Below, in pieces: positions 392 through 25,962 of a stretch of 59,271 nt of DNA. The notes under the pieces are model-generated. The model saw nothing but the letters and a program-made list of their open reading frames with translations, did no database searches and was not told the DNA's origin. A program made the position numbers and the translations under genes. Each line of letters starts with the position of its first letter. Position 1 is the stretch's first letter. The stretch comes from Candidatus Staskawiczbacteria bacterium (GTDB lineage: Bacteria > Patescibacteriota > Minisyncoccia > Minisyncoccales > Staskawiczbacteraceae), in assembly GCA_903845295.1 (NCBI GenBank), contig CAIMWV010000030.1, positions 1 through 59,271 on the forward strand. Direction: 5' to 3'.

Positions 392-393
392 TG

Positions 394-4828: not shown

Positions 4829-7747
4829 ATGTCGTATAATTTTCCAAAAAAAGAAGAAGAGGTACTAAAATTTTGGCAAGAAAATGAAATTTTTGAAAAA
4901 ACTCTTGAAAAAACCCTTCGACCCGCTCAGGGCAAGCGAAAAGATTTTGTTTTTTATGATGGCCCGCCATTTGCAACCGGCACTCCGCATTATGGCCATT
5001 TGCTTCAGAGCGTGATTAAAGATGTGATTCCTCGCTACAAAACCATGCAGGGATTTTATGTTGAACGACAGTGGGGCTGGGATTGCCACGGGCTTCCAAT
5101 AGAAAATATTGTTGAAAAAGAGCTTGGAACTAAATCCAAAAAAGAAATTGTGGCAATGGGCGTAAAAAAATTCAATGACCTTTGCAGAGCCCGTATTTTT
5201 ACCTTTATCCACGAGTGGGAGACAATAATCCCGCGTTTTGGAAGATGGGCGGATATGAAGAACCCGTATCGTACTATGGATTTTGAGTATATGCAGTCAG
5301 AATGGTGGGCCTTTAAAGAATTATATAAAAAAGGACTTATTTACGAAGATTACAGGTCTATGCACATCTGCCCCCGTTGCGAAACAACCTTAAGCCAGGG
5401 CGAAGTTGCAGAGGGATATAAAGATATAAAAGATTTATCGGCAACTGTAAAATTTAAAGTGAAAAATCCGGAAAAAATCGGATTAAAGGGCGACGTATAT
5501 TTGCTTGCATGGACGACAACTCCTTGGACGCTGCCCGGTAATGTGGCTTTAGCTGTAGGTAAAGATATAGATTATGATTTTGTTGCACATGAAGGGGCTC
5601 ATTATATTGTCGCTAAAGCTCGAAATGTTGTTATTAATCAAAATCAACCCGTATCGATCGCTATTATCAGCAAAACAGTAAAAGGCACTCAATTAGTCGG
5701 TTTAGAATACGAACCGTTATTCGATTATTATTCAAAAGATGAAAAATTAAAAAACAGAGAAAATGGCTGGAAAATTTATGCTGCTGATTTTGTGAATACA
5801 GAAGAGGGCACGGGCATTGTCCATATTGCGCCTGCATTCGGGGCAGATGATATGGAATTAGGTAAAAAAGAAAATCTTCCATTTGTGCAGCACGTAAAAA
5901 TGGACGGTACATTTAAAGAAGAAATGGGAGAATTTGCCGGACTTGATTTAAAACCCAGGGCAAAAGATAAGCCAGAAGAAATCCGTGATGCAGATTTAGA
6001 AATAGTGCGCTATCTTAAAGGGAAAAATCTTTTATTCGATTCTCAAAAATATGAGCATTCTTATCCTCATTGCTGGAGGTGCGACACGGCGCTATTAAAT
6101 TATGCCACAAGTTCTTGGTTTGTTGCGGTTGAAAAAATAAAGTCTAAATTGCTGAAAACTGCAAAGAAAATACAATGGTCTCCTGAACATATAAAAGAAG
6201 GAAGATTCGGCCAGTGGCTAGAAGGAGCCCGTGATTGGTCTATTTCACGCCAGCGTTTTTGGGCCAACACGATTCCTGTTTGGAGGTGCGGCAAATGTAA
6301 AAAAGAACTTGTGTTCGCGTCCGCGGCAGAACTTGAAAAAGTCAGCGGAGAAAAAGTTACCGACCTACATAAAGATGTGGTTGATGAAGTTGTTTTTAAA
6401 TGTGAATGCGGAGGAAAAACGCATCGTGTGCCCGACGTATTGGATACTTGGTTTGATTCTGGGTCTGTTCCATTTGCCACTATGCATTATCCGTTAGAAA
6501 ATAAAAATAATTTAAAAAAGAGGCTGCCAGCAGACTTTATCGGTGAGGCGCAAGATCAGACACGCGCATGGTTTTATTACCAGCACGTATTGGTGGGCGC
6601 ATTGTTCGGCGTAGAGGCATTCAAGCATTGTATTGTGACGGGGATTGTATTGGCTGAAGACGGAAAAAAGATGTCTAAAAAATTAAAGAATTATCCCGAT
6701 CCAAAGGAAATGATGGAAAAATATGGAGCTGACGCGATGCGTTTTTATATGCTGACTTCTCCCGTAGTCCAGGCAGAGAATCTTTCATTCTCCGAAAAAG
6801 GCGTTGATGAAATAGTAAAGAAAAATATCAGCAGATTATATAACGTACAGGCATTTTACCAGCTTTACCAAGACGGCACGCCAGCCGGAAGCTCCAGTAA
6901 AAACATACTTGATATATGGATAGTGTCCCGTCTCAACGGGTTAATAAAAGTTATTACAGAAGGTTACGAAAATTATCGCGTTGATTTGGCAACGCGCCCG
7001 CTCACTGATTTTATCGAGGACTTTTCAGTGTGGTATTTAAGGCGAAGCAGAGATCGTTTTAAGGAAGGGGGTGAAGATAAAAAAGACGCACTTGCTACTC
7101 TGCGGTACGCGCTATCTGTTGTTTCAAAAATTATGGCTCCTGCCATGCCATTTTTTTCAGAAGAAATATATCGTGATTTAAGAACAAAAGAAATGCCAGA
7201 GTCAGTGCATTTGTGCGACTGGCCAGTATCGGATAAAAAGAAAATTGATAAGGATTTGGAAGAAAAAATGGATGAAGTGAGATTGATTGTTAATTTAGTT
7301 TTAGCTGAAAGAATTGCAAAAGGAATAAAGGTCAGGCAGCCCCTTGCTTTTTTTAAGATTAAAGCTCCTAAAACAAAAATTAAAGGAGACAGTCAATTAT
7401 TAGATTTAATCAGGGACGAGGTTAATATAAGAGAAATCATATTTGATGATAAAATTGAAAAAGAAATAGAGCTTGATACAAAGATAACAGAGGAATTGAA
7501 ATGGGAAGGCGAAAGCAGGGAGATAATTAGGGGTATAAGAAGTTTAAGAAAAGAAGCAGGTTTATCTATGGGAGTTGTTGTCGATACTGCAGGAACTAGT
7601 GTCATATTGCCTGAATCAATGAAAGAAAATTTAAGAAAAGAGTCTGGCGCCAATAATTTTTTCGCCTCAGAACAAATAAATGAATTCGATTTTAAAAAGG
7701 AAATAACAATTGACGGCAAAATCTATTTAGTCTTCATTAAAAAATGA
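4829..7747 (+). CDS. ileS: Isoleucine--tRNA ligase
   Basis: FYDGPPFATGTPHYGH, GWDCHGLP, WTTTPWTLP, DWSISRQRFW, KMSKKLKN. Confidence 0.97.
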   Translation: MSYNFPKKEEEVLKFWQENEIFEKTLEKTLRPAQGKRKDFVFYDGPPFATGTPHYGHLLQSVIKDVIPRYKTMQGFYVERQWGWDCHGLPIENIVEKELGTKSKKEIVAMGVKKFNDLCRARIFTFIHEWETIIPRFGRWADMKNPYRTMDFEYMQSEWWAFKELYKKGLIYEDYRSMHICPRCETTLSQGEVAEGYKDIKDLSATVKFKVKNPEKIGLKGDVYLLAWTTTPWTLPGNVALAVGKDIDYDFVAHEGAHYIVAKARNVVINQNQPVSIAIISKTVKGTQLVGLEYEPLFDYYSKDEKLKNRENGWKIYAADFVNTEEGTGIVHIAPAFGADDMELGKKENLPFVQHVKMDGTFKEEMGEFAGLDLKPRAKDKPEEIRDADLEIVRYLKGKNLLFDSQKYEHSYPHCWRCDTALLNYATSSWFVAVEKIKSKLLKTAKKIQWSPEHIKEGRFGQWLEGARDWSISRQRFWANTIPVWRCGKCKKELVFASAAELEKVSGEKVTDLHKDVVDEVVFKCECGGKTHRVPDVLDTWFDSGSVPFATMHYPLENKNNLKKRLPADFIGEAQDQTRAWFYYQHVLVGALFGVEAFKHCIVTGIVLAEDGKKMSKKLKNYPDPKEMMEKYGADAMRFYMLTSPVVQAENLSFSEKGVDEIVKKNISRLYNVQAFYQLYQDGTPAGSSSKNILDIWIVSRLNGLIKVITEGYENYRVDLATRPLTDFIEDFSVWYLRRSRDRFKEGGEDKKDALATLRYALSVVSKIMAPAMPFFSEEIYRDLRTKEMPESVHLCDWPVSDKKKIDKDLEEKMDEVRLIVNLVLAERIAKGIKVRQPLAFFKIKAPKTKIKGDSQLLDLIRDEVNIREIIFDDKIEKEIELDTKITEELKWEGESREIIRGIRSLRKEAGLSMGVVVDTAGTSVILPESMKENLRKESGANNFFASEQINEFDFKKEITIDGKIYLVFIKK
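4914..4932 (+). repeat. CCTTCG-N4/5-GCTCAGG palindromic element copy 1 (in ileS; LRPAQG)
   Basis: CCCTTCGACCCGCTCAGGG matches four other copies in the window. Confidence 0.8.
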
Positions 7748-8736
7748 TGATTGATTTTTCTCTATTGAAAAATATTGATTTTACGAACACAGATAATTTA
7801 ATATTTTTATCTATATTTTTAGTCATAGTTATTATTGTTTTTTTTATTTTTATTGTAGTCTTAGTAGAAATTATAAAAGTAATAAAAAAAGCGATTATTA
7901 AAATATTTAATATAGATACTGAAAAAACCGAATTTGGTATAAAAGAAAGTACGAATCAGCTGCAAGATAATAAAGAAGCAGAAAAACGACCCAGTGAGTA
8001 CCCTAGTATACCAAAACAACAAGCTATTGGGGTTAATCTTAATATTGCCGAAAAAAAATCTGAGGAGGAACAAAAAACCTCGGTAAAATCTTATAAAGAG
8101 AAAGAAGAAAAAGGTATTACAGAAGGGCTTTCAAAACTTAAATCTGGAGGTTCTGCCGGCGGAGACACATTAGAATCGAAGATGCCGTCAAGAACGGGTG
8201 GACAAGAAGAAGATGATAAGTTTAAGCCAATTAAAATACCGACACCGAAGCGTCTTGCACCAAGTAATATAACGCCAGAAGTAAAGTATGGCGGTACACC
8301 AACCGGGGAAATAAACTCAAAGCTGCGTGGCCAGCCGTTGACTTACGAAAAAGAGAGCGGCATAAATTCGGCAGCCGGCAGTTTAAAAATACCAGTTGCA
8401 GGCAAAGGAACGTCAAAACAGCAGGCAGGGCAAGATACTTCAATTTTTGGAGGTCAATCCGAGATTTCCAGAATAAAATTGGAGCAGGAAATGAAAACAG
8501 ACACCAATGTTTGGCAAGCCTCAAGGCAGTCGGGACTTAATTTAAGTCCGGTGGAAAGAGCTAAACTCGTAAAAGAAGTTTTTTCGTCTGCACTTGGCAG
8601 AAATATTTCTAAAACAGATTTAAAGTCCGGCATTACGAAGCTTAATCGTAAAATGCTTAATTCAAAAGATTCTACTGAACATGCAAAAATCAGGAAGGAA
8701 ATAAAATTTTTCAAAAAAATCGGAGGCATAAAATGA
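7744..8736 (+). CDS. Hypothetical membrane-anchored protein
   Basis: N-terminal hydrophobic helix, long low-complexity linker, helical C-terminal domain; ATGA overlaps with both neighbours. Confidence 0.8.
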   Translation: MMIDFSLLKNIDFTNTDNLIFLSIFLVIVIIVFFIFIVVLVEIIKVIKKAIIKIFNIDTEKTEFGIKESTNQLQDNKEAEKRPSEYPSIPKQQAIGVNLNIAEKKSEEEQKTSVKSYKEKEEKGITEGLSKLKSGGSAGGDTLESKMPSRTGGQEEDDKFKPIKIPTPKRLAPSNITPEVKYGGTPTGEINSKLRGQPLTYEKESGINSAAGSLKIPVAGKGTSKQQAGQDTSIFGGQSEISRIKLEQEMKTDTNVWQASRQSGLNLSPVERAKLVKEVFSSALGRNISKTDLKSGITKLNRKMLNSKDSTEHAKIRKEIKFFKKIGGIK

Positions 8737-9494
8737 CTTTAAAATATAAAACAAAGGGATTTGTTTTTAAAAAGAATAATGTAAATGAGTCAGACAGAAT
8801 TTTTTCTGTTTTTACTCATGATTTCGGACGGTTGGATATTTTTTCCAAAGCGATAAGAAAAACTGTTTCTAAGTTAAGGAGCGGAATAGATATTTTTTTT
8901 ATGTCAGAGATAGAATTTATACAAGGTAAAAACAGAAAAACCCTTACAGATACAGCTATAATAGAAAAATTTGATAATATCTGGCAGGATTTAGAAAAGT
9001 TTAAAACTGCCAACAGAATAGGAGAAATTTTAGACAATTTTATAAAAGGCGAAGAAAAAGACGAAGAAATTTTTATATTGATAAGCGAAGTGATGGAAAA
9101 GCTGAATATCCAGAAGCCCTTCAGAGAGACCATAAATCAGCCGATAATTTTTTATTATTTTCTCTGGAATTTTTTTTCGATACAAGGATATCGTTCAGAG
9201 GTCCAAAAATGCGCCGGCTGCCACGAGAAATTAAATCCTTACAATATTTATTTCTCCGGCAAAGAAGGCGGTATTATTTGCGGCAATTGCGCAAAATCAA
9301 AAAAAAACTGTCCTGAGCCTTGCCGAAGGATAAATTCGGATATTGTAAAAATATTAAGGCTTATTCTGTCAAAAGATTGGCAGACATTATCTAAATTAAA
9401 AATTGAGCAATCTTCCCAGAAACTATTGTCAGAAGTTTCAGAAAATGCCATTCATGCATTTTGCCCATCCATAATGCATTATACAATCACTTGA
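8733..9494 (+). CDS. recO: DNA repair protein RecO
   Basis: ESDRIFSVFTHDFG OB-fold start; CAGC...CGNC zinc finger. Confidence 0.92.
   Translation: MTLKYKTKGFVFKKNNVNESDRIFSVFTHDFGRLDIFSKAIRKTVSKLRSGIDIFFMSEIEFIQGKNRKTLTDTAIIEKFDNIWQDLEKFKTANRIGEILDNFIKGEEKDEEIFILISEVMEKLNIQKPFRETINQPIIFYYFLWNFFSIQGYRSEVQKCAGCHEKLNPYNIYFSGKEGGIICGNCAKSKKNCPEPCRRINSDIVKILRLILSKDWQTLSKLKIEQSSQKLLSEVSENAIHAFCPSIMHYTIT
9311..9330 (-). repeat. Palindromic element copy 2 (in recO, reverse orientation; PEPCRR)
   Basis: TCCTGAGCCTTGCCGAAGGA is the reverse complement of TCCTTCGGCAAGGCTCAGGA. Confidence 0.8.
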
Positions 9495-9593
9495 TAGCGG
9501 ACCAAGAAAGATATAAAATAAATCAAGAAAGAAGATTTCCCTCGAATATTAAAACTAAAATTTTTATTAATAAAAAATACTAAAAATAAAACA

Positions 9594-10760: not shown

Positions 10761-10784
10761 AAATAAGTTTATTTTTAAAAACCA

Positions 10785-12446: not shown

Positions 12447-12459
12447 TAACTATACATCT

Positions 12460-14674: not shown

Positions 14675-15991
14675 ATGACGGCAAAAAAAGAAGACTTGCC
14701 TGCGCAGGCAGGAAATAATCCAGAATTAATGGATAAAATCGTATCTTTGTGCAAGAGGAGGGGCTTTGTTTTCCCGGGATCTGAAATATATGGAGGATTG
14801 GCTAATTCATTTGATTACGGTCCTTTGGGTGTTGAACTTGAAAATAATATAAAAAACATCTGGTGGAAACGCTTTGTCCACCAAAGAGATGATGTGGTCG
14901 GCATAGATGCCGCCTTGATAATGAATCCGAAAGTCTGGGAAGCCTCGGGCCACCTGGAAAATTTCTCAGATCCTTTGGTTGAATGCAAAAAATGCCACCA
15001 TAGATTCAGGGAGGACCAGCTTAAAGAGAAAAAATGTCCTGATTGCAAGGGAGAATTAATGCCGGCAAAACAATTTAATTTAATGTTGAAGACTTTTTTG
15101 GGGCCGGTTGAGAACGGTGACAGCGCGGTTTATCTGCGTCCGGAAATAGCCCAGACAATGTTTGTTGATTTTAAAAATGTTTTAGATACCACAAGAAGAA
15201 AATTGCCTTTCGGCATCGCTTCTCAGGGCAAGGCTTTCAGAAACGAAATAACTCCTGGTAATTTTATTTTTCGCACAAGAGAATTCAATTTGATGGAATT
15301 TGAATACTTTATCCGCGAGGATGAATGGAAAAAGTGGTTTGAATATTGGAAAGAAGAAATGGAAAATTGGCTCTTGGATTTGGGTGTCAATATGGGACAT
15401 ATCCACCAAGTTGAAATTCCCGATGGTGAAAGGGCGCATTATTCCAAAAGAACCGTTGATTTTGAATACGAATATCCTTTCGGCCAGAAAGAGTTGTATG
15501 GCCTGGCTTATCGCACTGATTTTGATTTGAAAAATCATTTCAAAGAACCGCCGTATGAAGACGCAGAATCCGGAGAAAAATTTTATCCGCATGTCATTGA
15601 GCCGACATTCGGCCTCGATAGGTCGGTTTTAGTGGCGCTTTTGGAGGCATATTGTCAGGAAAAAGACCGGGTTGTCCTGAAACTTCCGGTAAAATTGGCT
15701 CCATACAAAGTTGCCGTTTTCCCTCTCTTAAAAAACAAGCCGGAATTGGTTAAAAAAGCCACAGAAGTATACCATCAGTTAAAGAAAAATTTTACAGCCG
15801 CATTTGATGACAGGGGAAATATTGGAAAACGTTATTACAGCCAGGATGAGATTGGAACGCCTTTTTGCGTGACAATTGATTTTGATACTTTAGAAAATGA
15901 GGATGTGACGGTCAGAGACAGAGATACAATGAAACAAGAAAGAATAAAAATTAAAGATCTAACATCATTTTTAAATGGCAAACTTGTATAA
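14675..15991 (+). CDS. glyQS: Glycine--tRNA ligase (alpha2 homodimeric type)
   Basis: KRRGFVFPGSEIYGG, YLRPEIAQ, FRNEITPGNFIFRTREF, IEPTFGLDR, anticodon-binding domain. Confidence 0.96.
   Translation: MTAKKEDLPAQAGNNPELMDKIVSLCKRRGFVFPGSEIYGGLANSFDYGPLGVELENNIKNIWWKRFVHQRDDVVGIDAALIMNPKVWEASGHLENFSDPLVECKKCHHRFREDQLKEKKCPDCKGELMPAKQFNLMLKTFLGPVENGDSAVYLRPEIAQTMFVDFKNVLDTTRRKLPFGIASQGKAFRNEITPGNFIFRTREFNLMEFEYFIREDEWKKWFEYWKEEMENWLLDLGVNMGHIHQVEIPDGERAHYSKRTVDFEYEYPFGQKELYGLAYRTDFDLKNHFKEPPYEDAESGEKFYPHVIEPTFGLDRSVLVALLEAYCQEKDRVVLKLPVKLAPYKVAVFPLLKNKPELVKKATEVYHQLKKNFTAAFDDRGNIGKRYYSQDEIGTPFCVTIDFDTLENEDVTVRDRDTMKQERIKIKDLTSFLNGKLV
14695..14712. repeat. 18-bp near-perfect palindrome within the glyQS 5' end (LPAQAG)
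   Basis: CTTGCCTGCGCAGGCAGG; inner 14 bp TGCCTGCGCAGGCA is a perfect palindrome. Confidence 0.6.
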
Positions 15992-17255
15992 AAAAACAAC
16001 TCTAAATAATGGGTTAAGGATTATTACAGTTCCAGTAAAAAATGCTAACAGTGTTACGGTCTTGATATTGGTCGGTACGGGTTCTAAATATGAAACAAAA
16101 GATATAAACGGGATTTCACATTTTTTAGAGCACATGTTTTTTAAAGGGACCGTAAAGTGTCCCAATACTTTAAAAATTTCAGAAACCTTGGATTCGGTCG
16201 GCGGAGAATACAACGCATTCACGTCTAAGGAGGTTACCGGATTTTGGGCGAAAGTTGATAAAAAACATTCGGATGTGGCATTAGACTGGATTTCAGATAT
16301 ATTTTTGAATTCCAAGTTTGCCGGAGAAGAGATACAAAGGGAAAAAGGCGTAATAATTGAGGAAGTAAATATGTATTTAGACACTCCTACCGCATATATC
16401 GGAGACCTTTGGGAAAAACTTTTATACGGGGACCAACCGGCGGGCTGGATGACCATAGGAGAAAAGGAAAATATAATGAGTTTTAACAGGAAGAAGGTTT
16501 TAGATTATTATAATTCCCACTATTCTTCATCAAATGTGATAGTCTGCGTTGCCGGAGCCGTGGAGCCTAAAAAAATAGAAAAAGAAATTGAAGGTTATTT
16601 CAAAGATATAAAAAAGGGCTTAGCCGGAAAAAAAATTAAAGTAAAAGAGGTTCAGCAGGAGCCGAAAGTTTTGCTGCACAATAAAAAAACAGACCAAACG
16701 CATTTTTGCCTGGGAGTAAGAGCATATGATTTATTTGATAAAAGAAAGTATGCCCTAGCTTTACTGTCTATTATTTTAGGGGGCAATATGAGCTCGCGGC
16801 TTTTCATAAAAGTAAGGGAAAGAAACGGCTTGGCATATTCGATACATACATCAGCCGATAACGCCACTGATACGGGATATCTGGTCACACAGGCCGGAAT
16901 TGACCATAAAAACCTGGAAAAATCTATAGAATTAATCTTGCAGGAATATAAAGATCTGAAAAATAATAAGATTACGGAAAAAGAATTACAGAAGGCAAAA
17001 GACTATGTGAAAGGAACCACGTCTTTGTCTTTAGACTCTTCAGACGTCCAAGCTTCTTTTTATGCTGTGCAGGAATTATTGGAAAAAAATATTTTGACCC
17101 CAGAAGAAAAGTTCAAAAAAATTGACAAAGTCTCTATAGATGATATAAAAAAAGTGGCAGAGGATATATTTTTGCCGGAGAAGCTTAATTTAGCCGTGAT
17201 AGGTCCGGTTGAACAAAAAGATTCTGCCAGATTAAAAAAATTATTAAAACTATAA
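15975..17255 (+). CDS. M16 family zinc peptidase
   Basis: HFLEH (HxxEH), NAFTS, SSRLFIKVRERNGLAYS. Confidence 0.92.
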   Translation: MANLYKKTTLNNGLRIITVPVKNANSVTVLILVGTGSKYETKDINGISHFLEHMFFKGTVKCPNTLKISETLDSVGGEYNAFTSKEVTGFWAKVDKKHSDVALDWISDIFLNSKFAGEEIQREKGVIIEEVNMYLDTPTAYIGDLWEKLLYGDQPAGWMTIGEKENIMSFNRKKVLDYYNSHYSSSNVIVCVAGAVEPKKIEKEIEGYFKDIKKGLAGKKIKVKEVQQEPKVLLHNKKTDQTHFCLGVRAYDLFDKRKYALALLSIILGGNMSSRLFIKVRERNGLAYSIHTSADNATDTGYLVTQAGIDHKNLEKSIELILQEYKDLKNNKITEKELQKAKDYVKGTTSLSLDSSDVQASFYAVQELLEKNILTPEEKFKKIDKVSIDDIKKVAEDIFLPEKLNLAVIGPVEQKDSARLKKLLKL

Positions 17256-17257
17256 AA

Positions 17258-18289
17258 ATGGAGAAAGAACAAGTTCTGGATATTTCATGGGGAACGATAG
17301 TCAAGGTATTCGTAGCAATTTTAATTTTCTACGTTATTTATCTTGCCAGAAATATAGCTATCTGGTTCTTTTTTGCTTTAGTAATTTCAGTTTTGCTTGA
17401 CCCGGCAATTAATTTTTTACGTAAAATCCGCACACCTAAAATTATAGCCATAATAGCGGTTTATCTGTCCATCTTCGGCGTGTTGGGGCTTTTAATTTAT
17501 TTAACAGCTCCAATTTTCATTTCAGAATTAAAACAATTTTCCCATTATTTGCCGGGCTATTTTAACCAGATCAGTCCGGTTTTGAGGCAGCTGGGCGTTG
17601 ACACAGCGCAGAATTTTAATGACTTTATAAAATCTCTTACAAATGATTTGGAAGAGAGTTCAGGGAATGTTATAAGCGCATTGCTGGTATTTTTTGGAGG
17701 GATTTCTTCGGCTGCCTTTATTTTGACTATTGCTTTTTTCCTTTCTTTGGAAGAAGAAGGAATAGAAAAATTTTTAGTTCTCCTGACCCCTAAAAAACAT
17801 GAGGAATATGCGCTTGATCTTTTTGAAAAAGTCCAGGTTAAAATTTCCGGATGGTTTGGTGCAAGAATATTGGCTTGTGCCTTTGTGGGGATAGCTTCTT
17901 TTATTGTTTTTTATATATTCGGAGTAAAATATGCTTTTATTCTGGCTTTGATATCGGGAATTTTAAATTTCATTCCTTATGTAGGACCATGGATAAGCAC
18001 TCTTCTGTTTATTATATTTATTGCCGTTTCATCTGGCTCATGGATGACAGTTATCTATGTTTTGATTGCCGTAGTCATAATTCAGGAAATCGAAAATAAG
18101 CTTTTAACGCCCCTATTAATGAAAAAATTCGTGAATGTGCCGCCGGTTTTGGTTATAGTCTCTCTGCTTGTCGGAGCTAAATTGTTCGGATTTTTAGGCA
18201 TGATTTTTGCAGTTCCGGTTTTTGGCATTATCTATGAATTTTTGAGAGAATTTTTAGAAAAAAGGAGGGAGGAAAGCTTAGATTCTTAG
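17258..18289 (+). CDS. AI-2E family transporter
   Basis: NFIPYVGP, QEIENKLLTPLLM, GAKLFGFLGMIFAVP. Confidence 0.88.
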   Translation: MEKEQVLDISWGTIVKVFVAILIFYVIYLARNIAIWFFFALVISVLLDPAINFLRKIRTPKIIAIIAVYLSIFGVLGLLIYLTAPIFISELKQFSHYLPGYFNQISPVLRQLGVDTAQNFNDFIKSLTNDLEESSGNVISALLVFFGGISSAAFILTIAFFLSLEEEGIEKFLVLLTPKKHEEYALDLFEKVQVKISGWFGARILACAFVGIASFIVFYIFGVKYAFILALISGILNFIPYVGPWISTLLFIIFIAVSSGSWMTVIYVLIAVVIIQEIENKLLTPLLMKKFVNVPPVLVIVSLLVGAKLFGFLGMIFAVPVFGIIYEFLREFLEKRREESLDS

Positions 18290-18742
18290 TATTATTATAG
18301 AAATTGCAACAACTATAACTTGATTTACTATTCTCCAGAATTTGGAGATTTTTTTTCCTTTTAAAAAATGGATTATTTGGTGATGTATCTTGTTGTGGAT
18401 TTCTAAAATTTTATTTGGCACAAGATGATTTAAAACAGTGAAACCATCGGGCAATATCGCCATAAAGGCACAGATATAAATAATCCCCCATCCTGAGCAC
18501 GTCGAAGGATCAGAGAATATCCAAATAAGCAAAATGCCTAAACAGAAATCTAAAAAAATTTTTAAAACATCGGGCAATATTTTGTGCCATTGTTTTTTTT
18601 CTATATTTTCAATGCCATATTCAATGTGGGGGAATAAATCCAAGAAATAATGGCTTAAAAAGGCCAGAATAATAGCCAAGGGGATATTATTTACCGCAGA
18701 GCCTACCGCAGCACCGAATAATAAATGCACGAGTAAAATCAT
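18278..18742 (-). CDS. Membrane-bound metal-dependent hydrolase-like protein
   Basis: HLLFG, SHYFLD..PH, LPD motifs in hydrophobic context. Confidence 0.6.
   Translation of the reverse strand: MILLVHLLFGAAVGSAVNNIPLAIILAFLSHYFLDLFPHIEYGIENIEKKQWHKILPDVLKIFLDFCLGILLIWIFSDPSTCSGWGIIYICAFMAILPDGFTVLNHLVPNKILEIHNKIHHQIIHFLKGKKISKFWRIVNQVIVVAISIIILRI
18490..18510 (-). repeat. Palindromic element copy 3 (PSTCSG)
   Basis: Minus strand ATCCTTCGACGTGCTCAGGAT. Confidence 0.8.
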
Positions 18743-18869: not shown

Positions 18870-20324
18870 ATGGCAAATAAAAACAAAAAATTCTATATTA
18901 CCACCAGCATCCCTTACACAAATGCGCCGCCGCACATCGGCTTTGCGCTAGAAATCATACAAGCGGATGTTTTGGCAAGGTACAACCGAGGTCTCGGCAA
19001 AGATACTTTTTTTCTGACCGGAACGGATGAGCACGGAATCAAGACGCTAAGGGCAGCCAAAGAAGCCGGAAAAGATATAAAAGATTTTACAGATGAGGTT
19101 TCGGGAAAATTTAAATCTCTGGCAAAGGTTTTAAATATATCTAATGATGACTTTATAAGAACTACAGATGAAATCCGCCACAAGCCGGCGGTAGAGAAGA
19201 TTTGGGAAAAAATGGACGAAAAGGGAGACATATATAAGAAAAAATACAAAGGGTATTACTGTCCCGGATGCGAGGCGTTTAAAACAGAAAAAGAAATGGT
19301 TGACGGAAAATGCATCATCCATTTAAAACCCCTTGAACTCGTTGAAGAAGAAAATTATTTTTTTGAACTTTCAAAATATACGGATAAAATAACAGGGATG
19401 ATTGAAAAAAATAAACTGATTATAATCCCGGAGGGGAAGAGAAATGAGACTTTGGCTATGCTAAAGCAAGGAATGGAAGATGTCAGTTTTTCCCGCACAA
19501 AAGACAAATATTGGGGATTGCAGGTTCCAGGAGATCCTTCCCAAGTAATGTATGTTTGGTGTGATGCCCTGTCTAATTATATTTCCGCTATAGGATATAC
19601 GGACGAAACTAAGCAATTTAAAAAATATTGGCCGGCTGACGTTCATTGCGTAGGGAAAGACATAATGAAATTCCATACTATATTCTGGCCTGCAATGCTT
19701 TTGTCGGCAGGATTAGAATTGCCAAAGACAATTTTTGTGCATGGATTTATAAATGTCGGAGGCCAAAAGATGTCAAAATCTTTGGGAAATGTTATTGATC
19801 CGTTTGAGCTGGTAAATAAATATGGCGTTGATGCGGTAAGATATTATTTATTAAGGGAAATTCTTCCGACAGAGGATGGCGATTTTACTTACGATAAATT
19901 TGAACAAAGATATAATTCAGATTTAGCCGGGGGTATAGGAAATTTAGTTGCCAGAGTTTTAGGCATTGCCGGGAAATTAGATATAAAAGAATTAAAGCAG
20001 ACAAAAAAGACTTCCGATAAGATTAAGCAAATAAAGGAAAATTATAAGTTAGCTATAGAAGAGTTTAAATTTAATGAGGCGCTGGCACATATCTGGGAGT
20101 TAATGAGCTTTTGCGATAAATATATAAATGAAGAAAAATTATGGGAAACCCCTTCGGCCAGCTCAGGGCAGGCAAAAAAACTTCAAGTTATAAATGATTT
20201 ATTTTTTGCCATAAATGAAATAGGAATTTTGCTTCTGCCATTTTTGCCAGAGACTGCAGAAAAAATTAAAAAAGCAGTTGAGTCTAAAAAGTCAGAAAAT
20301 TTATTTCCCAAAATATTAAAATAA
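18870..20324 (+). CDS. metG: Methionine--tRNA ligase (short form)
   Basis: YTNAPPHIG, TGTDEHG, YVWCDAL, GKDIMKFH, KMSKSLGN. Confidence 0.97.
   Translation: MANKNKKFYITTSIPYTNAPPHIGFALEIIQADVLARYNRGLGKDTFFLTGTDEHGIKTLRAAKEAGKDIKDFTDEVSGKFKSLAKVLNISNDDFIRTTDEIRHKPAVEKIWEKMDEKGDIYKKKYKGYYCPGCEAFKTEKEMVDGKCIIHLKPLELVEEENYFFELSKYTDKITGMIEKNKLIIIPEGKRNETLAMLKQGMEDVSFSRTKDKYWGLQVPGDPSQVMYVWCDALSNYISAIGYTDETKQFKKYWPADVHCVGKDIMKFHTIFWPAMLLSAGLELPKTIFVHGFINVGGQKMSKSLGNVIDPFELVNKYGVDAVRYYLLREILPTEDGDFTYDKFEQRYNSDLAGGIGNLVARVLGIAGKLDIKELKQTKKTSDKIKQIKENYKLAIEEFKFNEALAHIWELMSFCDKYINEEKLWETPSASSGQAKKLQVINDLFFAINEIGILLLPFLPETAEKIKKAVESKKSENLFPKILK
20150..20168 (+). repeat. Palindromic element copy 4 (in metG; PSASSG)
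   Basis: CCCTTCGGCCAGCTCAGGG. Confidence 0.8.
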
Positions 20325-20326
20325 AA

Positions 20327-21145: not shown

Positions 21146-21154
21146 ATGTGAATA

Positions 21155-21279: not shown

Positions 21280-21315
21280 GTTTGGCTTTTATTCGTGATT
21301 AAATTGATGCCAAAC

Positions 21316-21350
21316 AAAAAAAAGCGCGGTTGCCTTTGGGACAACCGCGT
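21316..21350 (-). terminator. Intrinsic terminator of the receiver-domain gene
   Basis: Minus strand ACGCGGTTG-N9-CAACCGCGC followed by T8. Confidence 0.8.
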
Positions 21351-21378
21351 TGCAGTTCGACCGGCTGAACGCCGGTTT

Positions 21379-21735: not shown

Positions 21736-21881
21736 CACTGATTCTCCGCGGGTTTTTCCTTGACTTAGCTTCCCTTCATCCACATCGGCAAAGGGCTACA
21801 ATAGTTTTAGCGCATTTTTTCAAAATTGTCAATCTTTCTCTCAGTAGCTACTTATGGTAAAATCGAAGAATAAGGTTTTAT

Positions 21882-24314
21882 ATGAAATACAATCCGCAAA
21901 AAATAGAACAGAAATGGCAGGAATCCTGGTATAATTCCAATGCATTTAGAGCCAAAAATGGCTCTAAAAAGAGGAAATTTTACCTTTTGGTAGAGTTTCC
22001 TTACCCCTCCGGAGACGGGCTTCACGTAGGCCATTGCCGGAGCTATACTGCCTTGGATATATTAGCCCGCAAGAAAAGAATGCAGGGATACAATGTTTTG
22101 TTTCCGATCGGATGGGATGCTTTTGGCCTGCCGACAGAAAATTATGCCATTAAGAAAGGAGTCCATCCGTCTGTAGTCACGAAAAAGAACACTGACAATT
22201 TCAGGCGCCAGATGAAGGAAATGGGGCTGTCTTTTGACTGGTCAAGAGAAATTAACACGACAGACCCCAAATACTATAAATGGACGCAGTGGATTTTTCT
22301 GCAGTTGTTCAAACACCAGCTGGCTTATAAGACAAAAATATCGATTAATTGGTGCCCGAAAGATAAAATCGGCCTGGCTAACGAAGAGGTTGTTGACGGC
22401 AAATGCGAGAGATGCGGGACAAAAGTTGAAAAAAGGGAAAAAGAGCAATGGATGATAAAAATTACCAATTATGCCGACAGGCTGATTAAAGATTTGGATC
22501 TGGTTGACTATTTGGAAAAAATTAAGACACAGCAGAAAGATTGGATAGGCGAATCCGACGGGGCTTTAGTCAAATTTTCTGTCGAGGGAATCGAAGAATT
22601 TATAGATGTTTTTACAACCAGAATAGACACTATATTTTCCGGAACGTTTTTAATTTTAGCGCCAAGCCATAATTTTATAGATAAGCATAAAAATAAAATT
22701 GAAAATATTGAAGAAGTTTTAAAATATAGGGAAGACATAAAAAATGTTTCTGATATAGACAGGACAAACCAGGATAAAGATGTGACGGCTGTGCAACTGA
22801 AGGGAATTACAGTCAGGAATCCCTCGACCAACGAAAAAATGCCGGTGTGGACTGCGGATTTCGTTTTGGAGAACTACGGCACAGGAGCTGTTTTTGCAGA
22901 TGCGCACGATAAAAGAGATTTTAAAATGGCGAAAAAATACGGCATACCCTTGCGCACATCTATAAAACCGGATGATGAATTGCTGACCCAAAAGGTAAAA
23001 AATTTGGAGGAATGTTTTGAGGGCGAGGGAATTTTGTACAACTCCATGCAGTTTGACGGATTAAAATCTGCAGAGGCTCGGCCAAGAATAATAGCATGGC
23101 TGGCATCCAAAGGTTCAGCTTATCCTAAAATCAGTTATAAATTGAGGGATTGGGTTTTTTCCCGCCAGCATTATTGGGGAGAGCCCATACCAATGATTTA
23201 TTGCAAAAAATGCGGCTGGCAGCCGGTTGATGAAAAAGATTTACCGGTTAAATTGCCGAATGTGAAGAAATACAAGCCCACAGACACGGGAGAGTCTCCT
23301 CTTTCTTTGATTAAAAAATGGGTTGATGTTAAATGTCCAAAATGCAACGGTCCAGCCCAAAGAGAAACAGACACCATGCCAAATTGGGCCGGGTCTAACT
23401 GGTATTATTTAAGGTATACAGATCCGAAAAACAGCAAGAAATTAGCCGATGAAACAATATTAAAATATTGGATGCCGGTTGACTGGTATAACGGCGGAAT
23501 GGAACACACAACTTTGCATCTTTTGTATTCGAGGTTTATTTTTAAATTTTTGTGGGATATCAAGGCGGTACCGACATCAATCGGACCCGAACCTTATAAA
23601 AAAAGAACTTCCCATGGCATGGTTTTAGCGCAGGACGGCCAGAAGATGTCAAAATCGCGCGGGAACGTGATTAATCCCGACAGTGTCGTCAAAGAATACG
23701 GTGCCGACACTCTGAGGCTTTATGAAATGTTTATGGGGCCATTTGACCAGATGATTGCGTGGGATACCAACGGCATTATAGGCTGCAGACGGTTTTTAGA
23801 CAGATTTTGGAATTTAGTTTTAGCAGAAAAAAAGGCCAAAAAGTCTTCAAAAGAAGTCCAGGCGATATTGCATAAATTAATTAAAAAGGTAAGCGATGAT
23901 TTAGATTCGGCAAAATTCAATACTGCCGTCGCCGCATTCATGGAAGCCTTGAATTTTTTTCACGGAAAGCAAAATGAGGTTGGCCAAGAGGCAATTGAAA
24001 AATTAGTTATTTTATTTGCGCCTTTTGCCCCGCATATTACAGAAGAACTTTGGTCTGCAACTGGGAAAAAGGGCAGCGTTCATATGCAAAAATGGCCGAA
24101 ATATAATCCCGCGTTCATAAAAGAAGAAAAAATAACATTGATTATACAAGTAAACGGGAAGGTACGCGGCAAGATAGAAGCTAAGACGGGGATTACAGAA
24201 GAAAAAGCCAAAAAATTGGCGATGGCCGAACAAAGAATAAAAGAACTGATTGCCGGGAAAGAAATCAAGAAAATAATTTTTGTCCCAGATAAATTAATTA
24301 ATATTGTTATTTAA
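21882..24314 (+). CDS. leuS: Leucine--tRNA ligase
   Basis: FPYPSGDGLHVGH, LRDWVFSRQHYWGEPIP, GGMEH, KMSKSRGN. Confidence 0.97.
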   Translation: MKYNPQKIEQKWQESWYNSNAFRAKNGSKKRKFYLLVEFPYPSGDGLHVGHCRSYTALDILARKKRMQGYNVLFPIGWDAFGLPTENYAIKKGVHPSVVTKKNTDNFRRQMKEMGLSFDWSREINTTDPKYYKWTQWIFLQLFKHQLAYKTKISINWCPKDKIGLANEEVVDGKCERCGTKVEKREKEQWMIKITNYADRLIKDLDLVDYLEKIKTQQKDWIGESDGALVKFSVEGIEEFIDVFTTRIDTIFSGTFLILAPSHNFIDKHKNKIENIEEVLKYREDIKNVSDIDRTNQDKDVTAVQLKGITVRNPSTNEKMPVWTADFVLENYGTGAVFADAHDKRDFKMAKKYGIPLRTSIKPDDELLTQKVKNLEECFEGEGILYNSMQFDGLKSAEARPRIIAWLASKGSAYPKISYKLRDWVFSRQHYWGEPIPMIYCKKCGWQPVDEKDLPVKLPNVKKYKPTDTGESPLSLIKKWVDVKCPKCNGPAQRETDTMPNWAGSNWYYLRYTDPKNSKKLADETILKYWMPVDWYNGGMEHTTLHLLYSRFIFKFLWDIKAVPTSIGPEPYKKRTSHGMVLAQDGQKMSKSRGNVINPDSVVKEYGADTLRLYEMFMGPFDQMIAWDTNGIIGCRRFLDRFWNLVLAEKKAKKSSKEVQAILHKLIKKVSDDLDSAKFNTAVAAFMEALNFFHGKQNEVGQEAIEKLVILFAPFAPHITEELWSATGKKGSVHMQKWPKYNPAFIKEEKITLIIQVNGKVRGKIEAKTGITEEKAKKLAMAEQRIKELIAGKEIKKIIFVPDKLINIVI

Positions 24315-24315
24315 A

Positions 24316-25962
24316 ATGGTAAAAGAAGTTTTATTGGGAAATGAGGCAATCGTCAAAGCGGCTTTAGAAGCAGGTGTGGATTTTGTGTCCGGTTATCCGG
24401 GATGTCCGGCAGCCGAAGTCGGGGACGAGTTCGGAAAAATTGCGAAAGAAAATGGTATTTATTTTGAATGGTCAACAAATGAAAAAGTAGCTTTGGAGGC
24501 AGCTATAGGCGCCAGCTTTTCGGGTTTAAAAACTTTGGTGGCAATGAAAAATTTCGGCCTGAATGTTTGTGCCGAGGCGTTGCTGCCCCTTTGTTATACC
24601 GGCACAAACGCGCCAATGGTGGTTGTGGTGGGAGATGACCCTTCTTGCTGGAGTTCGGCTCAAACCGAGGAAAATTCGCGTGGATACGCATTTATAGCGC
24701 ATATACCGGTGTTAGAGCCGTCGGATTGCCAGGAATGCCATGATTTTACTAAACTGGCATTTGAAATTTCAGAAAAATTTAAATTACCGGTTATTTTGAG
24801 AACCACAATCCGCGTAGCTCATCAGCGTGCGCCCGTACAGTTTGAGGAAACAGGCAAGAAAGAATTAAAAAAGGGCAATTTTATTAAAAATCCCCATCAG
24901 TATGTTACTTTGCCCCCGAGGGTTCTGGAAATGAAAAAAGAATTGCTGGAGAAAATGGAAAAAATCCAGGCGTATGCCGAGAAAGAAAAAATTAATTTTG
25001 TTAAAGGCGGCAAGTCACCCTTCGGCACGGCTCAGGGCAAGAAAATAGGCATTATCGCTTCGGGCGTGGGTTATCTGCATTTAATGGAGGCACAAAAAGA
25101 AATGGGATTAGATTTGCCTGTTTTAAAAATAAATCTTTTTTATCCTTTAACAGAAAAAACGGTTGCCGATTTTGTTAAAAAATTAAATAAAGTTCTGATA
25201 GTCGAGGAATTAGACGGTTATTTGGAAAAAGAAACAAAGGTGATAGCAAGGGAATCGAATCCTAAAATTAAAATTTCCGGAAAAGATTTGCTGTCTGAAA
25301 TAGGAGAATTAAATGTAGAAAAAGTCGGTTTGGCTTTGGCTAAATTAACCGGAAAAAAAATTAAAATTGTAAAACCACAAACGCCGGATATCCCGAGAAG
25401 ATATGCCAAGCTTTGCGACGGCTGTCCGCATTTTTATACTTTTTCCGTTATTAAAAAAGTCGCACCGGAAAATACTATTTTCGGCGGCGACATCGGCTGT
25501 TATATGATTGCAGGCATGCCTCCGCACAATATCCAGGATTATGAATTTTGCATGGGATCCTCTTTGGGTATTGCCCATGGCGTCCGCAAATCAACGAACC
25601 AGAAAGTAATTGCTTTAATCGGCGACGGAACATTCTTCCATTCGGGAATTGCAGGGCTGATTAACACGGTTTACAATAAATCCAATCCATTGATTATTAT
25701 TTTAGATAACCGGATAACCGCAATGACAGGGCACCAGAACAACCCGGGTATGGGTAAAAATGGCATGGGAGAGCCGGCGCAAGAATTAAACATAGAAGAA
25801 ATAGTCCGGGCTTGTGGAGTTAAAAGTATAAAAGTTTTAGACCCGATAAATGTAAAAGAGCTGGAAGACACAGTTACAGATTTTCTTTCAAAAGAGGAAG
25901 TTTCTGTAATAGTCTGCAAGAGAATCTGTGCTCTGCTGGCTCGTAGACAACAAAATGGGTAA
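24316..25962 (+). CDS. iorA: Indolepyruvate:ferredoxin oxidoreductase alpha subunit, lacking the C-terminal ferredoxin domain
   Basis: LLGNEAI, GYPGCP, NEKVALE, CDGCPH, GDIGCY, IGDGTFFHSG, DNRITAMTGHQ; ATG at 24316 preferred. Confidence 0.9.
   Translation: MVKEVLLGNEAIVKAALEAGVDFVSGYPGCPAAEVGDEFGKIAKENGIYFEWSTNEKVALEAAIGASFSGLKTLVAMKNFGLNVCAEALLPLCYTGTNAPMVVVVGDDPSCWSSAQTEENSRGYAFIAHIPVLEPSDCQECHDFTKLAFEISEKFKLPVILRTTIRVAHQRAPVQFEETGKKELKKGNFIKNPHQYVTLPPRVLEMKKELLEKMEKIQAYAEKEKINFVKGGKSPFGTAQGKKIGIIASGVGYLHLMEAQKEMGLDLPVLKINLFYPLTEKTVADFVKKLNKVLIVEELDGYLEKETKVIARESNPKIKISGKDLLSEIGELNVEKVGLALAKLTGKKIKIVKPQTPDIPRRYAKLCDGCPHFYTFSVIKKVAPENTIFGGDIGCYMIAGMPPHNIQDYEFCMGSSLGIAHGVRKSTNQKVIALIGDGTFFHSGIAGLINTVYNKSNPLIIILDNRITAMTGHQNNPGMGKNGMGEPAQELNIEEIVRACGVKSIKVLDPINVKELEDTVTDFLSKEEVSVIVCKRICALLARRQQNG
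25018..25037 (+). repeat. Palindromic element copy 5 (in iorA; PFGTAQG)
   Basis: CCCTTCGGCACGGCTCAGGG. Confidence 0.8.

What the first reader, a model, noticed from the sequence alone, without database searches (positions are those of the whole stretch)
4914..25037. A ~20-bp palindromic element inserted in frame in five protein-coding genes
Seen: consensus YCCTTCGRC-N2/3-GCTCAGGR occurs at 4914 (ileS, LRPAQG), 9311 (recO, reverse, PEPCRR), 18490 (membrane hydrolase, PSTCSG), 20150 (metG, PSASSG) and 25018 (iorA, PFGTAQG). All five copies I found are intragenic, use different frames and both orientations, and leave the ORF intact; outer arms covary (CCCT/AGGG, TCCT/AGGA, ATCCT/AGGAT). On the CCTGAGC..GYCGAAGG strand the stem contains tandem G.A pairs. 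DNA conservation with unrelated peptide products implies a nucleic-acid-level element. Established analogy: Rickettsia palindromic elements in coding sequences. Inference: a non-autonomous mobile or RNA-structural element mobilised in trans; no transposase is in this window. Similar motifs probably occur in other CPR genomes, so novelty is uncertain.
Basis: partly seen in the sequence, partly recalled or inferred. Interest (0 to 1): 0.7.

Follow-up and report, generated by a model that had tools for sequence, protein, structure and literature searches.

The report
Pan-bacterial 24-base hairpin repeat in genes
The five look-alike stretches are copies of a tiny (24-base, 8-codon) hairpin-forming DNA repeat inserted without breaking the reading frame; the same repeat occurs almost letter for letter in many bacterial phyla, has no recognisable transposase, and its core stays unchanged even at silent codon positions.

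Summary
Shuffled sequence gives none.

What it is:
- The window's genome (779 kb, probably Ca. Staskawiczbacteria, a CPR bacterium) holds 33 strict copies.
- Species of the same genus hold 0 to 59 copies.
- 148 of 401 sampled genomes of the phylum carry it.
- The exact 20-mer also occurs in Acidobacteriota, Chloroflexota, Sphingomonas, Bacteroidota, Actinomycetota, Nostoc and other groups.

The unit is YCCTTCGRC-N2-3-GCTCAGGR-CARG(C). It has a covarying outer stem, an invariant mismatched core and a free loop.

Evidence that it is inserted DNA:
- Comparison with two relatives and with a roughly 94%-identical strain shows lineage-specific insertions, typically of exactly 24 nt.
- There is no target duplication, and the insertion sites are A-rich.
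- In proteins the extra residues fall in loops and linkers.

Candidate enzymes that do not explain it: Y1/RAYT transposase, topoisomerase IB and reverse transcriptase. No Rfam family matches.

Two unexpected results:
- In ileS, eight diverged alleles keep the core unchanged at 15 of 16 positions. In the flanks, 20 of 27 silent third positions vary.
- That ileS allele sits in non-sister lineages.

Best reading: an undescribed, REP-like, non-autonomous hairpin element under sequence constraint. Its mobilising or binding factor is unknown.

The parts
4914..4937 (+). Copy 1, CCCTTCGACCCGCTCAGGGCAAGC, in ileS. It is read as (T)LRPAQGK, a net +5 aa relative to empty alleles.
   Evidence: It is absent from 103 of the 120 closest IleRS homologues. 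It aligns to a 5-residue gap in solved IleRS structures, just before the first beta strand.
9307..9330 (-). Copy 2, TCCTTCGGCAAGGCTCAGGACAGT on the minus strand. It is antisense within recO and read as PEPCRR.
   Evidence: G003 and G023 carry unrelated sequence of similar length at this site. A loop variant at 9320 is seen in other runs.
18486..18509 (-). Copy 3, TCCTTCGACGTGCTCAGGATGGGG on the minus strand. It is in the sense orientation in the unannotated 154-aa ORF 18278-18742 (-) and read as PSTCSG.
   Evidence: There is an 18-nt gap at this site in G023. Variants in a related strain fall in the loop and at the R position (18499, 18502).
20150..20173 (+). Copy 4, CCCTTCGGCCAGCTCAGGGCAGGC, in metG (anticodon-binding domain). 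It is read as PSASSGQA.
   Evidence: The site shows a clean 24-nt gap in G003 and G023. A contig of a roughly 94%-identical strain (run X5) also lacks exactly 24 nt at 20147-20175.
25018..25041 (+). Copy 5, CCCTTCGGCACGGCTCAGGGCAAG, in the iorA-like TPP enzyme. It is read as PFGTAQGK.
   Evidence: It lies in the linker between POR_N and the next domain, directly before the strand KIGIIASG.
15205..15232 (+). Degenerate sixth copy, GCCTTTCGGCATCGCTTCTCAGGGCAAG, with one mismatch in each half and a 6-nt loop. It lies inside ORF 14675-15991 and is read as PFGIASQGK.
4829..7747 (+). ileS, the host gene of copy 1.
8733..9494 (+). recO, the host gene of copy 2.
18870..20324 (+). metG, the host gene of copy 4.
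24304..25962 (+). iorA-like 2-oxoacid:ferredoxin oxidoreductase alpha / TPP enzyme, the host gene of copy 5.

Best explanation
The five sequences are copies of a very small, non-autonomous, hairpin-forming repeat of the REP kind. The family appears to be undescribed and is spread over many bacterial phyla.

Anatomy (shown):
- The consensus is 5'-(AA)-YCCTTCGRC-N2-3-GCTCAGGR-CARG(C)-3'.
- A 4-bp outer stem has three covarying pairs plus an invariant T-A pair.
- Inside it lie an invariant 2x2 mismatch (T.C/C.T, or G.A/A.G on the other strand), an invariant G-C pair, a free R position and a free 2-3-nt loop.
- The usual inserted unit is 24 nt, i.e. 8 codons.
- Five of its six reading frames have no stop codon, so a copy landing in a tolerant protein loop leaves the gene working.

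History (shown):
- Copies arrive as insertions without target-site duplication.
- Sites are mostly A-rich. Some copies sit inside the loop of an existing copy.
- Arrivals are independent in related lineages.
- Some copies later shrink by small deletions or decay.
- The core of retained copies is held constant at the nucleotide level.

Mechanism (inferred):
- The hairpin, extruded in single-stranded DNA, is recognised through its invariant mismatched core by a trans-acting protein that has not been identified.
- That protein copies or moves the 24-nt unit into single-stranded, easily melted DNA. This resembles the 'peel and paste' of IS200/IS605 ends and REP/RAYT, but without their Y1 enzyme.
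- Filled alleles then pass between related species by short-patch homologous recombination.
For: Non-random and widespread:
- There are 33 unique strict copies in the 779-kb genome.
- Copy number ranges from 0 to 59 in the genus. The reversed-pattern control is 0 everywhere.
- 148 of 401 sampled genomes of the phylum carry it.
- More than 120 loci in many phyla hold the exact 20-mer.

Hairpin:
- Three stem pairs show 31, 29 and 10 double-sided changes.
- The covariation score is 0.300, against 0.114 in shuffles (0 of 500 reach it) and at most 0.109 in slid controls.

Insertion:
- Empty orthologous sites exist in G023 and G003.
- Clean 24-nt inserts without target duplication are seen, e.g. CAAA^AAAA receiving CCCTTCGGCAAGCTCAGGGCAAGC.
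- A strain about 94% identical lacks exactly 24 nt in metG.
- Twelve sites are filled only in G000 although G023 is its closer relative.
- Nested copies occur. Tandem arrays of 24-nt period occur in other phyla.

Tolerated in proteins:
- Every net length change inside an ORF is a multiple of 3.
- Only one of the six frames has a stop.
- The sites are loops or linkers.

Constraint in the ileS copy:
- The core varies at 1 of 16 sites, against 20 of 27 flanking silent third positions (Fisher p = 1.8e-5).
- Nucleotide diversity is 0.016 in the core against 0.425 at those silent sites.
- Two alleles in one clade have decayed heavily.
Against: - No mobilising enzyme was found. Y1_Tnp is absent from this genome and from 7 of 12 carriers in other phyla. 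Where it is present it is not flanked by the motif.
- TopIB is absent from the genus. Reverse transcriptase presence does not track copy number.
- No gene recurs beside copies in 120 loci.
- Single copies are not predicted to fold better than shuffles.
- A purely selfish element should decay after insertion. The silent-site conservation instead points to a function, or to some form of maintenance.
- A few sites look like equal-length replacement rather than insertion (window 9312; C27:68610).
- Near-identity of the core across phyla is unlike REPs, which are lineage-specific.
Confidence: 0.6

Rival explanations
1. The motif is a host-selected DNA signal, comparable to HIP1 of cyanobacteria, DNA uptake sequences or parS. 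A conserved DNA-binding or DNA-processing protein would read it. Copies would be kept by selection, or by recombination bias, rather than spread by transposition.
For: - The core is conserved at silent positions across eight diverged ileS alleles.
- The same allele sits in non-sister lineages, as expected if motif-bearing patches spread by recombination.
- Both orientations and all open frames are used.
- No transposase is linked to it.
- The core is nearly identical across phyla.
Against: - Copy number runs from 0 to 59 within one genus, and 63% of the sampled genomes of the phylum have none. That is hard to square with a needed host signal.
- Most copies are clean insertions of a fixed 24-nt unit, not motifs built up by point mutation.
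- Density is about 1 per 23 kb, far below that of HIP1 or uptake sequences.
- Nested and tandem copies look like element behaviour.
- No candidate reader protein is known.
Confidence: 0.22
2. The motif is a cis-acting RNA stem-loop in mRNAs. It would be a processing, stability or pausing signal, or a protein-binding site.
For: - Of the 26 strict pattern matches inside genes in this genome, 19 are sense and 7 antisense. One sense copy is counted twice because of the palindromic contig C26, leaving 18:7 unique copies.
- Several intergenic copies lie 3-31 nt after stop codons.
- The stem covaries.
Against: - The sense excess is about what the single antisense TGA frame predicts (3 open frames against 2).
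- Antisense copies would give a different RNA.
- Predicted RNA folding is no better than shuffles.
- There is no Rfam match.
- The invariant part is a specific sequence, not only a set of base pairs.
Confidence: 0.08
3. The matches are chance, a low-complexity protein linker, or an assembly or adapter artefact.
For: - Most carriers are metagenome-assembled genomes.
- One contig of this genome (C26) is an assembly artefact.
Against: - Shuffles and reversed-pattern controls give 0 matches.
- The motif is read in five different frames.
- It is present in isolate genomes (Sphingomonas natans, Nostoc sp., Chakrabartia) and in long-read chromosomes.
- It is present in independent runs and studies.
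Confidence: 0.01

Closest known systems
REP / REPIN elements with RAYT (Y1) transposases (Nunvar 2010, PMC2817692; Bertels & Rainey 2011, PMC3116915)
   Same: - It is a short imperfect palindrome, dispersed in many copies.
- It has conserved mismatches inside the stem and an unpaired conserved flank.
- It is thought to act as a single-stranded hairpin.
- Doublets and nested forms occur.
   Different: - Three quarters of copies here lie inside genes.
- There is no GTAG tag.
- There is no RAYT in this genome or in most carriers tested.
- The core is almost identical across phyla, whereas REPs are lineage-specific.
CGTC-tagged REPs (Di Nocera, De Gregorio & Rocco 2013, PMC3733652)
   Same: - They occur in several phyla.
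- They 'apparently lack a dedicated transposase'.
- Some copies are intragenic and in frame.
   Different: - Those have an 8-9-bp stem beginning with A-T pairs, a 4-5-nt loop, a CGTC tag and a CCA tail (the dRS3 / RPE-6 type).
- This element has a 4-bp stem, a mismatched core, and AA and CARG flanks.
- That paper's text holds none of four core words searched for (CTGAGC, GAAGG, CCTGAG, TCGAAG), apart from TCGAAG inside an unrelated 41-bp palindrome consensus. Its consensus figures are not held.
Rickettsia palindromic elements (RPE)
   Same: They are palindromic repeats inserted in frame in housekeeping genes and translated as extra loop residues.
   Different: - RPEs are 100-150 bp and restricted to Rickettsia (from my own knowledge).
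- This unit is 24 nt and occurs across many bacterial phyla.
Small dispersed repeats (SDR) of Nostoc (Elhai et al. 2008, Genome Res 18:1484). The paper is not held, so it is cited from memory and from PMC3116915.
   Same: - They are 21-27-nt mobile repeats, some forming hairpins.
- They show nested insertion, no target duplication and no encoded protein.
   Different: - They were described only in cyanobacteria.
- Sequence identity to any SDR family could not be checked.
HIP1 (GCGATCGC) of cyanobacteria (PMC5861425) and DNA uptake sequences
   Same: - The motif is kept at the nucleotide level inside coding sequence, in all frames.
- It is conserved across a whole phylum.
   Different: - Those are 8-12-nt motifs at roughly one per kb that arise by point mutation.
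- This is a 24-nt inserted unit at about one per 23 kb, with very uneven copy number.

Membership tests
REP/REPIN-RAYT | 20-40-bp imperfect palindrome present in many dispersed copies | tested here: met
   There are 33 strict copies in this genome. The stem covaries.
REP/REPIN-RAYT | Cognate Y1 (RAYT) transposase gene in the genome, flanked by the repeats | tested here: not met
   - PF01797 is absent from G000 at E <= 1.
- It is absent from 7 of 12 carriers in other phyla.
- None of the 19 Y1 loci found is flanked on both sides by the motif.
REP/REPIN-RAYT | Extragenic location and a conserved GTAG (or CGTC) tetranucleotide at the hairpin foot | tested here: not met
   26 of 34 pattern matches are intragenic. 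The flanks are AA and CARG.
Rickettsia palindromic elements | In-frame insertion into protein-coding genes with the ORF preserved | tested here: met
Rickettsia palindromic elements | Element of about 100-150 bp with sequence similarity to the RPE families | tested here: not met
   The unit is 24 nt. The CGTC-1 and CGTC-4 families that include RPE-6 and RPE-4 have a different architecture.
MITE | Terminal inverted repeats of a parent IS, plus target-site duplication | tested here: not met
   - There is no target duplication at clean insertions.
- The only transposase genes found in G000 (IS110, rve and DDE_5 types, each single-copy on a small contig), from a partial screen of ORFs, show no link to the motif; only the IS110 contig C20 was scanned for it.
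- The genome has no large multi-copy repeat of the kind a multi-copy IS would give.
IS200/IS605-type hairpin ends (PATE-like) | No target duplication, insertion next to a short preferred motif in single-stranded DNA, and a subterminal imperfect hairpin | tested here: inconclusive
   - There is no target duplication.
- Sites are A-rich (AAA^).
- Some copies insert into hairpin loops.
- The required TnpA (Y1) enzyme is absent.
DNA uptake sequence / HIP1-like selected motif | Nucleotide-level conservation at orthologous coding positions beyond codon constraint | tested here: met
   In ileS the core varies at 1 of 16 sites, against 20 of 27 silent flank sites (p = 1.8e-5).
DNA uptake sequence / HIP1-like selected motif | High and even density (about 1 per kb) across related genomes, with origin by point mutation | tested here: not met
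   Density is about 1 per 23 kb. Copy number is 0-59 in one genus. Copies arise by 24-nt insertion.
Known structured RNA families (Rfam 15) | Match to a covariance model | tested here: not met
   At gathering threshold the window gives only tmRNA and one tRNA. A five-copy array gives nothing better than E = 3.4.

The most novel reading that the evidence does not exclude
The 24-nt hairpin may not be a transposon at all. It would be a cis-acting DNA signal, found across many bacterial phyla, that is read by a widely conserved single-strand DNA-processing machine (replication restart, recombination or competence). The element would use that machine to get itself copied into melted A-rich DNA. It would also be preferentially retained or transmitted in recombination heteroduplexes, which would make it a sequence-specific gene-conversion or recombination driver. 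This would explain three things together: the near-identity of its core across phyla, the conservation of the core at silent sites, and the presence of the same filled allele in non-sister species.
Probability: 0.15. Interest if true: 0.9.

Novelty: new variant of a known kind. Interest (0 to 1): 0.66.

Why it matters
The kind of thing is known: small palindromic repeats tolerated in frame inside genes. This family departs from it in four ways that make it a useful handle on an old question, namely how REP-like repeats without a transposase spread and persist.
- The unit is only 24 nt, exactly eight codons.
- Its core is essentially the same in ultra-small CPR genomes, Acidobacteriota, Chloroflexota, Sphingomonas, cyanobacteria and other groups.
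- It has inserted repeatedly in lineages with no Y1 transposase.
- Retained copies are protected from change even at silent codon positions.

That combination implies a sequence-specific partner that is either very widespread or very mobile. Cultivable carriers exist, so the partner can be fished out with a 24-nt oligonucleotide.

There is also a practical point. The peptides it encodes (PSTSSGQA, LRQAQGK, PFDKLRAG, LSLSKG, PELVEG) contaminate protein predictions and alignments in many phyla. They should be recognised as repeat-derived.

Tried and rejected
Rejected, or led nowhere:
- **RAYT/Y1 transposase partner.** It is absent.
- **Poxvirus-type topoisomerase IB.** The left arm YCCTT is its cleavage motif, but the enzyme is absent from all 26 genomes of the genus.
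- **Reverse transcriptase / DGR link.** RT presence does not follow copy number. G000, G013 and G016 have many copies and no RT. G017 has no copies and 3 RT hits.
- **Known RNA family, hammerhead, K-turn or T-loop readings.** There is no Rfam hit, and the core does not fit those consensus sequences by inspection.
- **Phage vector.** Only 98 stretches were found in the whole IMG/VR collection.
- **A gene that travels with the repeat.** All-against-all comparison of ORFs from 120 loci found none.
- **Genes shared by the two copy-rich genomes but missing from the copy-poor one.** The list is dominated by essential genes missing because G023 is incomplete.
- **IS110 transposase on contig C20.** There is no motif nearby.
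- **Correlation between the loop and the 3' tail** (the tail as a duplicated loop). None beyond chance, by inspection of the copies listed.
- **Mimicry of the 16S rRNA 5' end** (shared GCTCAGG). The genome has no rRNA gene, and the similarity does not extend further in CPR.
- **Literature searches** for the DNA motif and its peptides. There were no relevant papers.

Could not be completed:
- The Elhai 2008 SDR paper is not held.
Full report
**1. The observation**

The pattern YCCTTCGRC-N2/3-GCTCAGGR occurs five times in the window:
- 4914-4932 (+)
- 20150-20168 (+)
- 25018-25037 (+)
- 18491-18509 (-)
- 9311-9330 (-)

One hundred dinucleotide-preserving shuffles give no match for either spacing. 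The host ORFs are all intact. They are ileS, recO, metG, an iorA-like TPP/POR_N enzyme, and a 154-aa ORF with no Pfam match. The copies are translated as LRPAQG, PEPCRR (the only copy antisense to its host gene), PSTCSG, PSASSG and PFGTAQG. A sixth, degenerate copy lies at 15205-15232.

**2. The family in this genome**

The window is contig C30 of a 779-kb, 35-contig genome of 40% G+C. The names that sources give to the closest IleRS homologues point to Candidatus Staskawiczbacteria, in Paceibacterota/CPR.
- A strict pattern finds 34 matches. That is 33 unique copies, because contig C26 is an exact self-reverse-complement and so an assembly artefact.
- The extended consensus is AA-Y-CCTTCGRC-N2-3-GCTCAGG-R-CARG(C).
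- Twenty-six of the 34 matches lie in ORFs and 8 between genes, against 11% non-coding DNA.
- Inside genes, 18 unique copies are sense and 7 are antisense. The consensus has a stop codon in only one of its six frames, an antisense one. That alone predicts a 3:2 excess of sense copies.
- Two copies are nested in the loop of another copy (C10:16320-16380 and C35:690-740).
- Four copies are a larger composite form.

**3. Distribution**

- In 25 other species of the genus, copy number runs from 0 to 59. The same pattern read backwards gives 0 everywhere.
- In an even sample of the phylum, 148 of 401 genomes have at least one exact match, again with 0 for the control.
- Those loci come from Acidobacteriota, Chloroflexota, Saccharibacteria and other CPR groups, Alpha-, Beta-, Gamma- and Deltaproteobacteria, Verrucomicrobiota, Planctomycetota, Bacteroidota, Actinomycetota, Gemmatimonadota, Chlamydiota and Cyanobacteria.
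- They include isolates (Sphingomonas natans, Nostoc sp. CHAB 5844, Chakrabartia godavariana) and closed long-read chromosomes.
- Some loci hold tandem arrays with a 24-nt period.
- Viral contigs hold very few copies: 98 stretches in IMG/VR.

The element is therefore neither an artefact nor a CPR speciality.

**4. Structure**

Ninety-seven distinct copies were anchored only on the invariant inner part. The sample was stratified by stem type, which is a caveat.
- The three outer stem pairs show 31, 29 and 10 double-sided changes (CCC/GGG, TCC/GGA, GGC/GCC, TGC/GCA, TGG/CCA, CAC/GTG and others).
- Helix 2, which combines these three outer pairs with the two invariant pairs (T-A and G-C), is 90% paired.
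- The covariation score is 0.300. Shuffles average 0.114 and 0 of 500 reach the observed value. Slid controls reach at most 0.109.
- Positions further out are not paired.
- Inside the stem, T.C and C.T oppositions (G.A/A.G on the other strand) and one G-C pair are invariant.
- The R position and the loop are free.
- Nearest-neighbour folding of single copies, as DNA or RNA and on either strand, is no better than shuffled sequence (z between about -0.2 and +1.3). Only the composite form folds significantly (z -2.4 and -3.0).

Pairing clearly matters, but probably only when the hairpin is bound by a protein or extruded as single-stranded DNA. No Rfam family matches.

**5. Insertion**

I fetched two whole relatives, G023 (1 copy) and G003 (37 copies). 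By proteome identity G000 is closer to G023 (76.7%) than to G003 (72.4%).
- Of the G000 copies alignable to G003, 4 are shared and 14 are empty in G003.
- Of the G003 copies alignable to G000, 5 are shared and 15 are empty in G000.
- Every alignable site is empty in G023.
- Twelve sites are filled only in G000. Given the relationships, these are gains in its own lineage. About half are clean gaps. The rest lie in poorly aligned loops.
- The cleanest cases are insertions of exactly 24 nt with no target duplication. Examples are CAAA^AAAA, AATT^GCCA and CGTA^TTTG.
- A-rich sequence before the insertion point is common, including for copies antisense to their gene.
- Logan contigs from another study, from a strain about 94% identical, lack exactly 24 nt at 20147-20175 in metG.
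- Variants inside other copies fall in the loop and at the R position (9320, 18499, 18502).
- Net length differences inside ORFs are 0, 12, 15, 18, 21 or 24 nt. All are multiples of three.
- A few sites (recO; C27:68610) look like replacement without a change in length.

**6. Position in proteins**

- The ileS copy aligns to a 5-residue gap in solved IleRS structures, in the turn just before the first strand (FVFYDGPP).
- The iorA-like copy sits in the linker before the strand KIGIIASG.
- The metG copy sits in a loop of the anticodon-binding domain, after the conserved W.

**7. The ileS copy as a natural experiment**

Distribution of the allele:
- Among the 120 closest IleRS homologues, 103 have the empty spacing and 12 carry the +5-residue allele TLRPAQG. 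Two of the 12 have decayed, to TREPKNG and TKNPKKD.
- One other homologue has an independent insertion at the same point in another frame (RSTGSGQA, +8 residues, a clean 24-nt unit).
- The +15-nt allele is explained as a 24-nt insertion followed by a 9-nt deletion between the element's tail CAAGC and the native AAAGCG. This is an inference.

Constraint on the allele:
- The DNA of eight intact alleles reads ACC CTT CG[A/G] CC[N] GCT CAG GGC A[A/G]G.
- The core varies at 1 of 16 positions. In the flanks, 20 of 27 silent third positions vary (Fisher p = 1.8e-5).
- Nucleotide diversity is 0.016 in the core against 0.425 at those silent positions.

Phylogeny of the allele:
- On a tree built from the rest of the gene, the filled species G000, G007 and G003 fall in three different clades, two of them well supported, each beside empty species.
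- In the 118-protein tree the +5 allele appears in about eight separate places.
- All intact alleles share the unusual C-N loop, which argues for a single origin.
- The scattered distribution is therefore best explained by short-patch recombination between species. Repeated insertion at a preferred site is less likely.
- Among 150 distant representatives, about 25 have other insertions in the same loop, so it is a generally permissive spot.

In the four copies shared by G000 and G003 the same pattern holds. The core differs at 3 of 68 positions, the loop at 7 of 10, and the flanks at about 22-25%.

**8. The search for a partner**

- Y1/RAYT transposase is absent from this genome and from 7 of 12 carriers in other phyla. 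Where present it is never flanked by the motif.
- The left arm YCCTT is the poxvirus-type TopIB site, but TopIB is absent from all 26 genus genomes.
- Reverse transcriptase presence does not follow copy number.
- No gene recurs next to copies in 120 loci.
- The genome's three transposases (IS110, rve and DDE_5 types) sit on tiny contigs. The IS110 contig C20, the only one scanned, has no copy of the motif.
- The genome search closed, so a class-wide profile could not be added.

**9. Interpretation**

Shown:
- It is a real family found across many bacterial phyla.
- It has a covarying hairpin and an invariant mismatched core.
- It inserts as a 24-nt unit without target duplication.
- It is tolerated in protein loops.
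- Gains are lineage-specific.
- The core is constrained at the nucleotide level in retained copies.
- It has no link to the usual enzymes.

Inferred:
- A trans-acting, sequence-specific protein recognises the extruded hairpin.
- Insertion goes into single-stranded, A-rich DNA or into hairpin loops.
- Filled alleles spread by recombination.

The main rival is a host-selected DNA signal. It explains the constraint and the scattered allele. It does not explain the fixed inserted unit, the nested and tandem forms, or the 0-59 range of copy number.

**10. Comparison with what is known**

The closest kinds are:
- REP/REPIN elements;
- the transposase-less, partly intragenic CGTC REPs of Di Nocera et al. 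(PMC3733652), which have a different architecture;
- Rickettsia palindromic elements;
- the 21-27-nt SDRs of Nostoc (Elhai 2008; the paper is not held).

Full-text searches for the motif and its peptides found nothing relevant. Earlier notes of this scan report the same family in other genomes, and same-site occupancy in non-sister lineages for another CPR repeat. I treat these as leads only.

**11. Verdict**

I rate it a new variant of a known kind. Interest is moderately high because of four features together: the minimal size, the identity across phyla, the absence of a transposase, and the silent-site constraint.

Noticed in passing
G000 contig C26 (whole contig, 27,938 nt): The contig is an exact reverse complement of itself, so it is an assembly artefact. 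Genes and the element copy on it are counted twice by scans.
   Followed up: yes
G000 C1:~790-850, C15:~42000-42050, C25:~6045-6100, C32:~16280-16330: A composite nested form, YCCTTCGRC-NNGG-GCTTCGACTGAGCTCAGC-CGAATGTC-CTCAGGR. It has four copies in G000 and none in G003 or G023. Two copies are read in frame inside ORFs. It folds better than shuffled sequence (z -2.4 and -3.0).
   Followed up: partly
G000 C1:1432, 2965, 13293: A related variant with a longer inner stem, CCTTCGCC(C)TGCGGGGCTCAGGGTGATTT. It has three copies on one contig, all intergenic.
   Followed up: no
window 15205-15232 (+): A degenerate sixth copy (GCCTTTCGGCATCGCTTCTCAGGGCAAG) inside ORF 14675-15991.
   Followed up: partly
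L074, L081, L086, L095, L112 (Acidobacteriota loci): In Acidobacteriota the same core is one arm of a longer multi-hairpin repeat. That repeat is closed by GCCCCA...TGGGGC and followed by ACCC.
   Followed up: no
L023:7487-7611; L061:227-318: Tandem arrays of the unit with a 24-nt period: 5.2 copies in an Actinomycetota MAG and 3.8 copies in a Flavobacteriales MAG.
   Followed up: partly
ileS, window 4890-4960, and homologues P0001-P0270: The turn before the first beta strand of IleRS is an insertion hot spot. It holds the LRPAQG allele in about eight scattered lineages, an independent RSTGSGQA insertion in P0078, and unrelated inserts in about 25 of 150 distant representatives.
   Followed up: yes
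G000 contigs C20 (1.9 kb), C13 (3.5 kb), C28 (1.5 kb): Single genes for an IS110-family, an rve/IS481-like and a DDE_5 transposase sit on very small contigs. The IS110 contig C20 was scanned and carries no copy of the motif; C13 and C28 were not scanned.
   Followed up: partly
window 391-739 (-) and 31701-31784 (-): A tmRNA gene and one tRNA gene. These are the only Rfam matches in the window.
   Followed up: no
genus genomes: Sixteen of the 26 genomes of the genus carry one to three reverse-transcriptase genes, some probably DGR-type. G000 has none.
   Followed up: no
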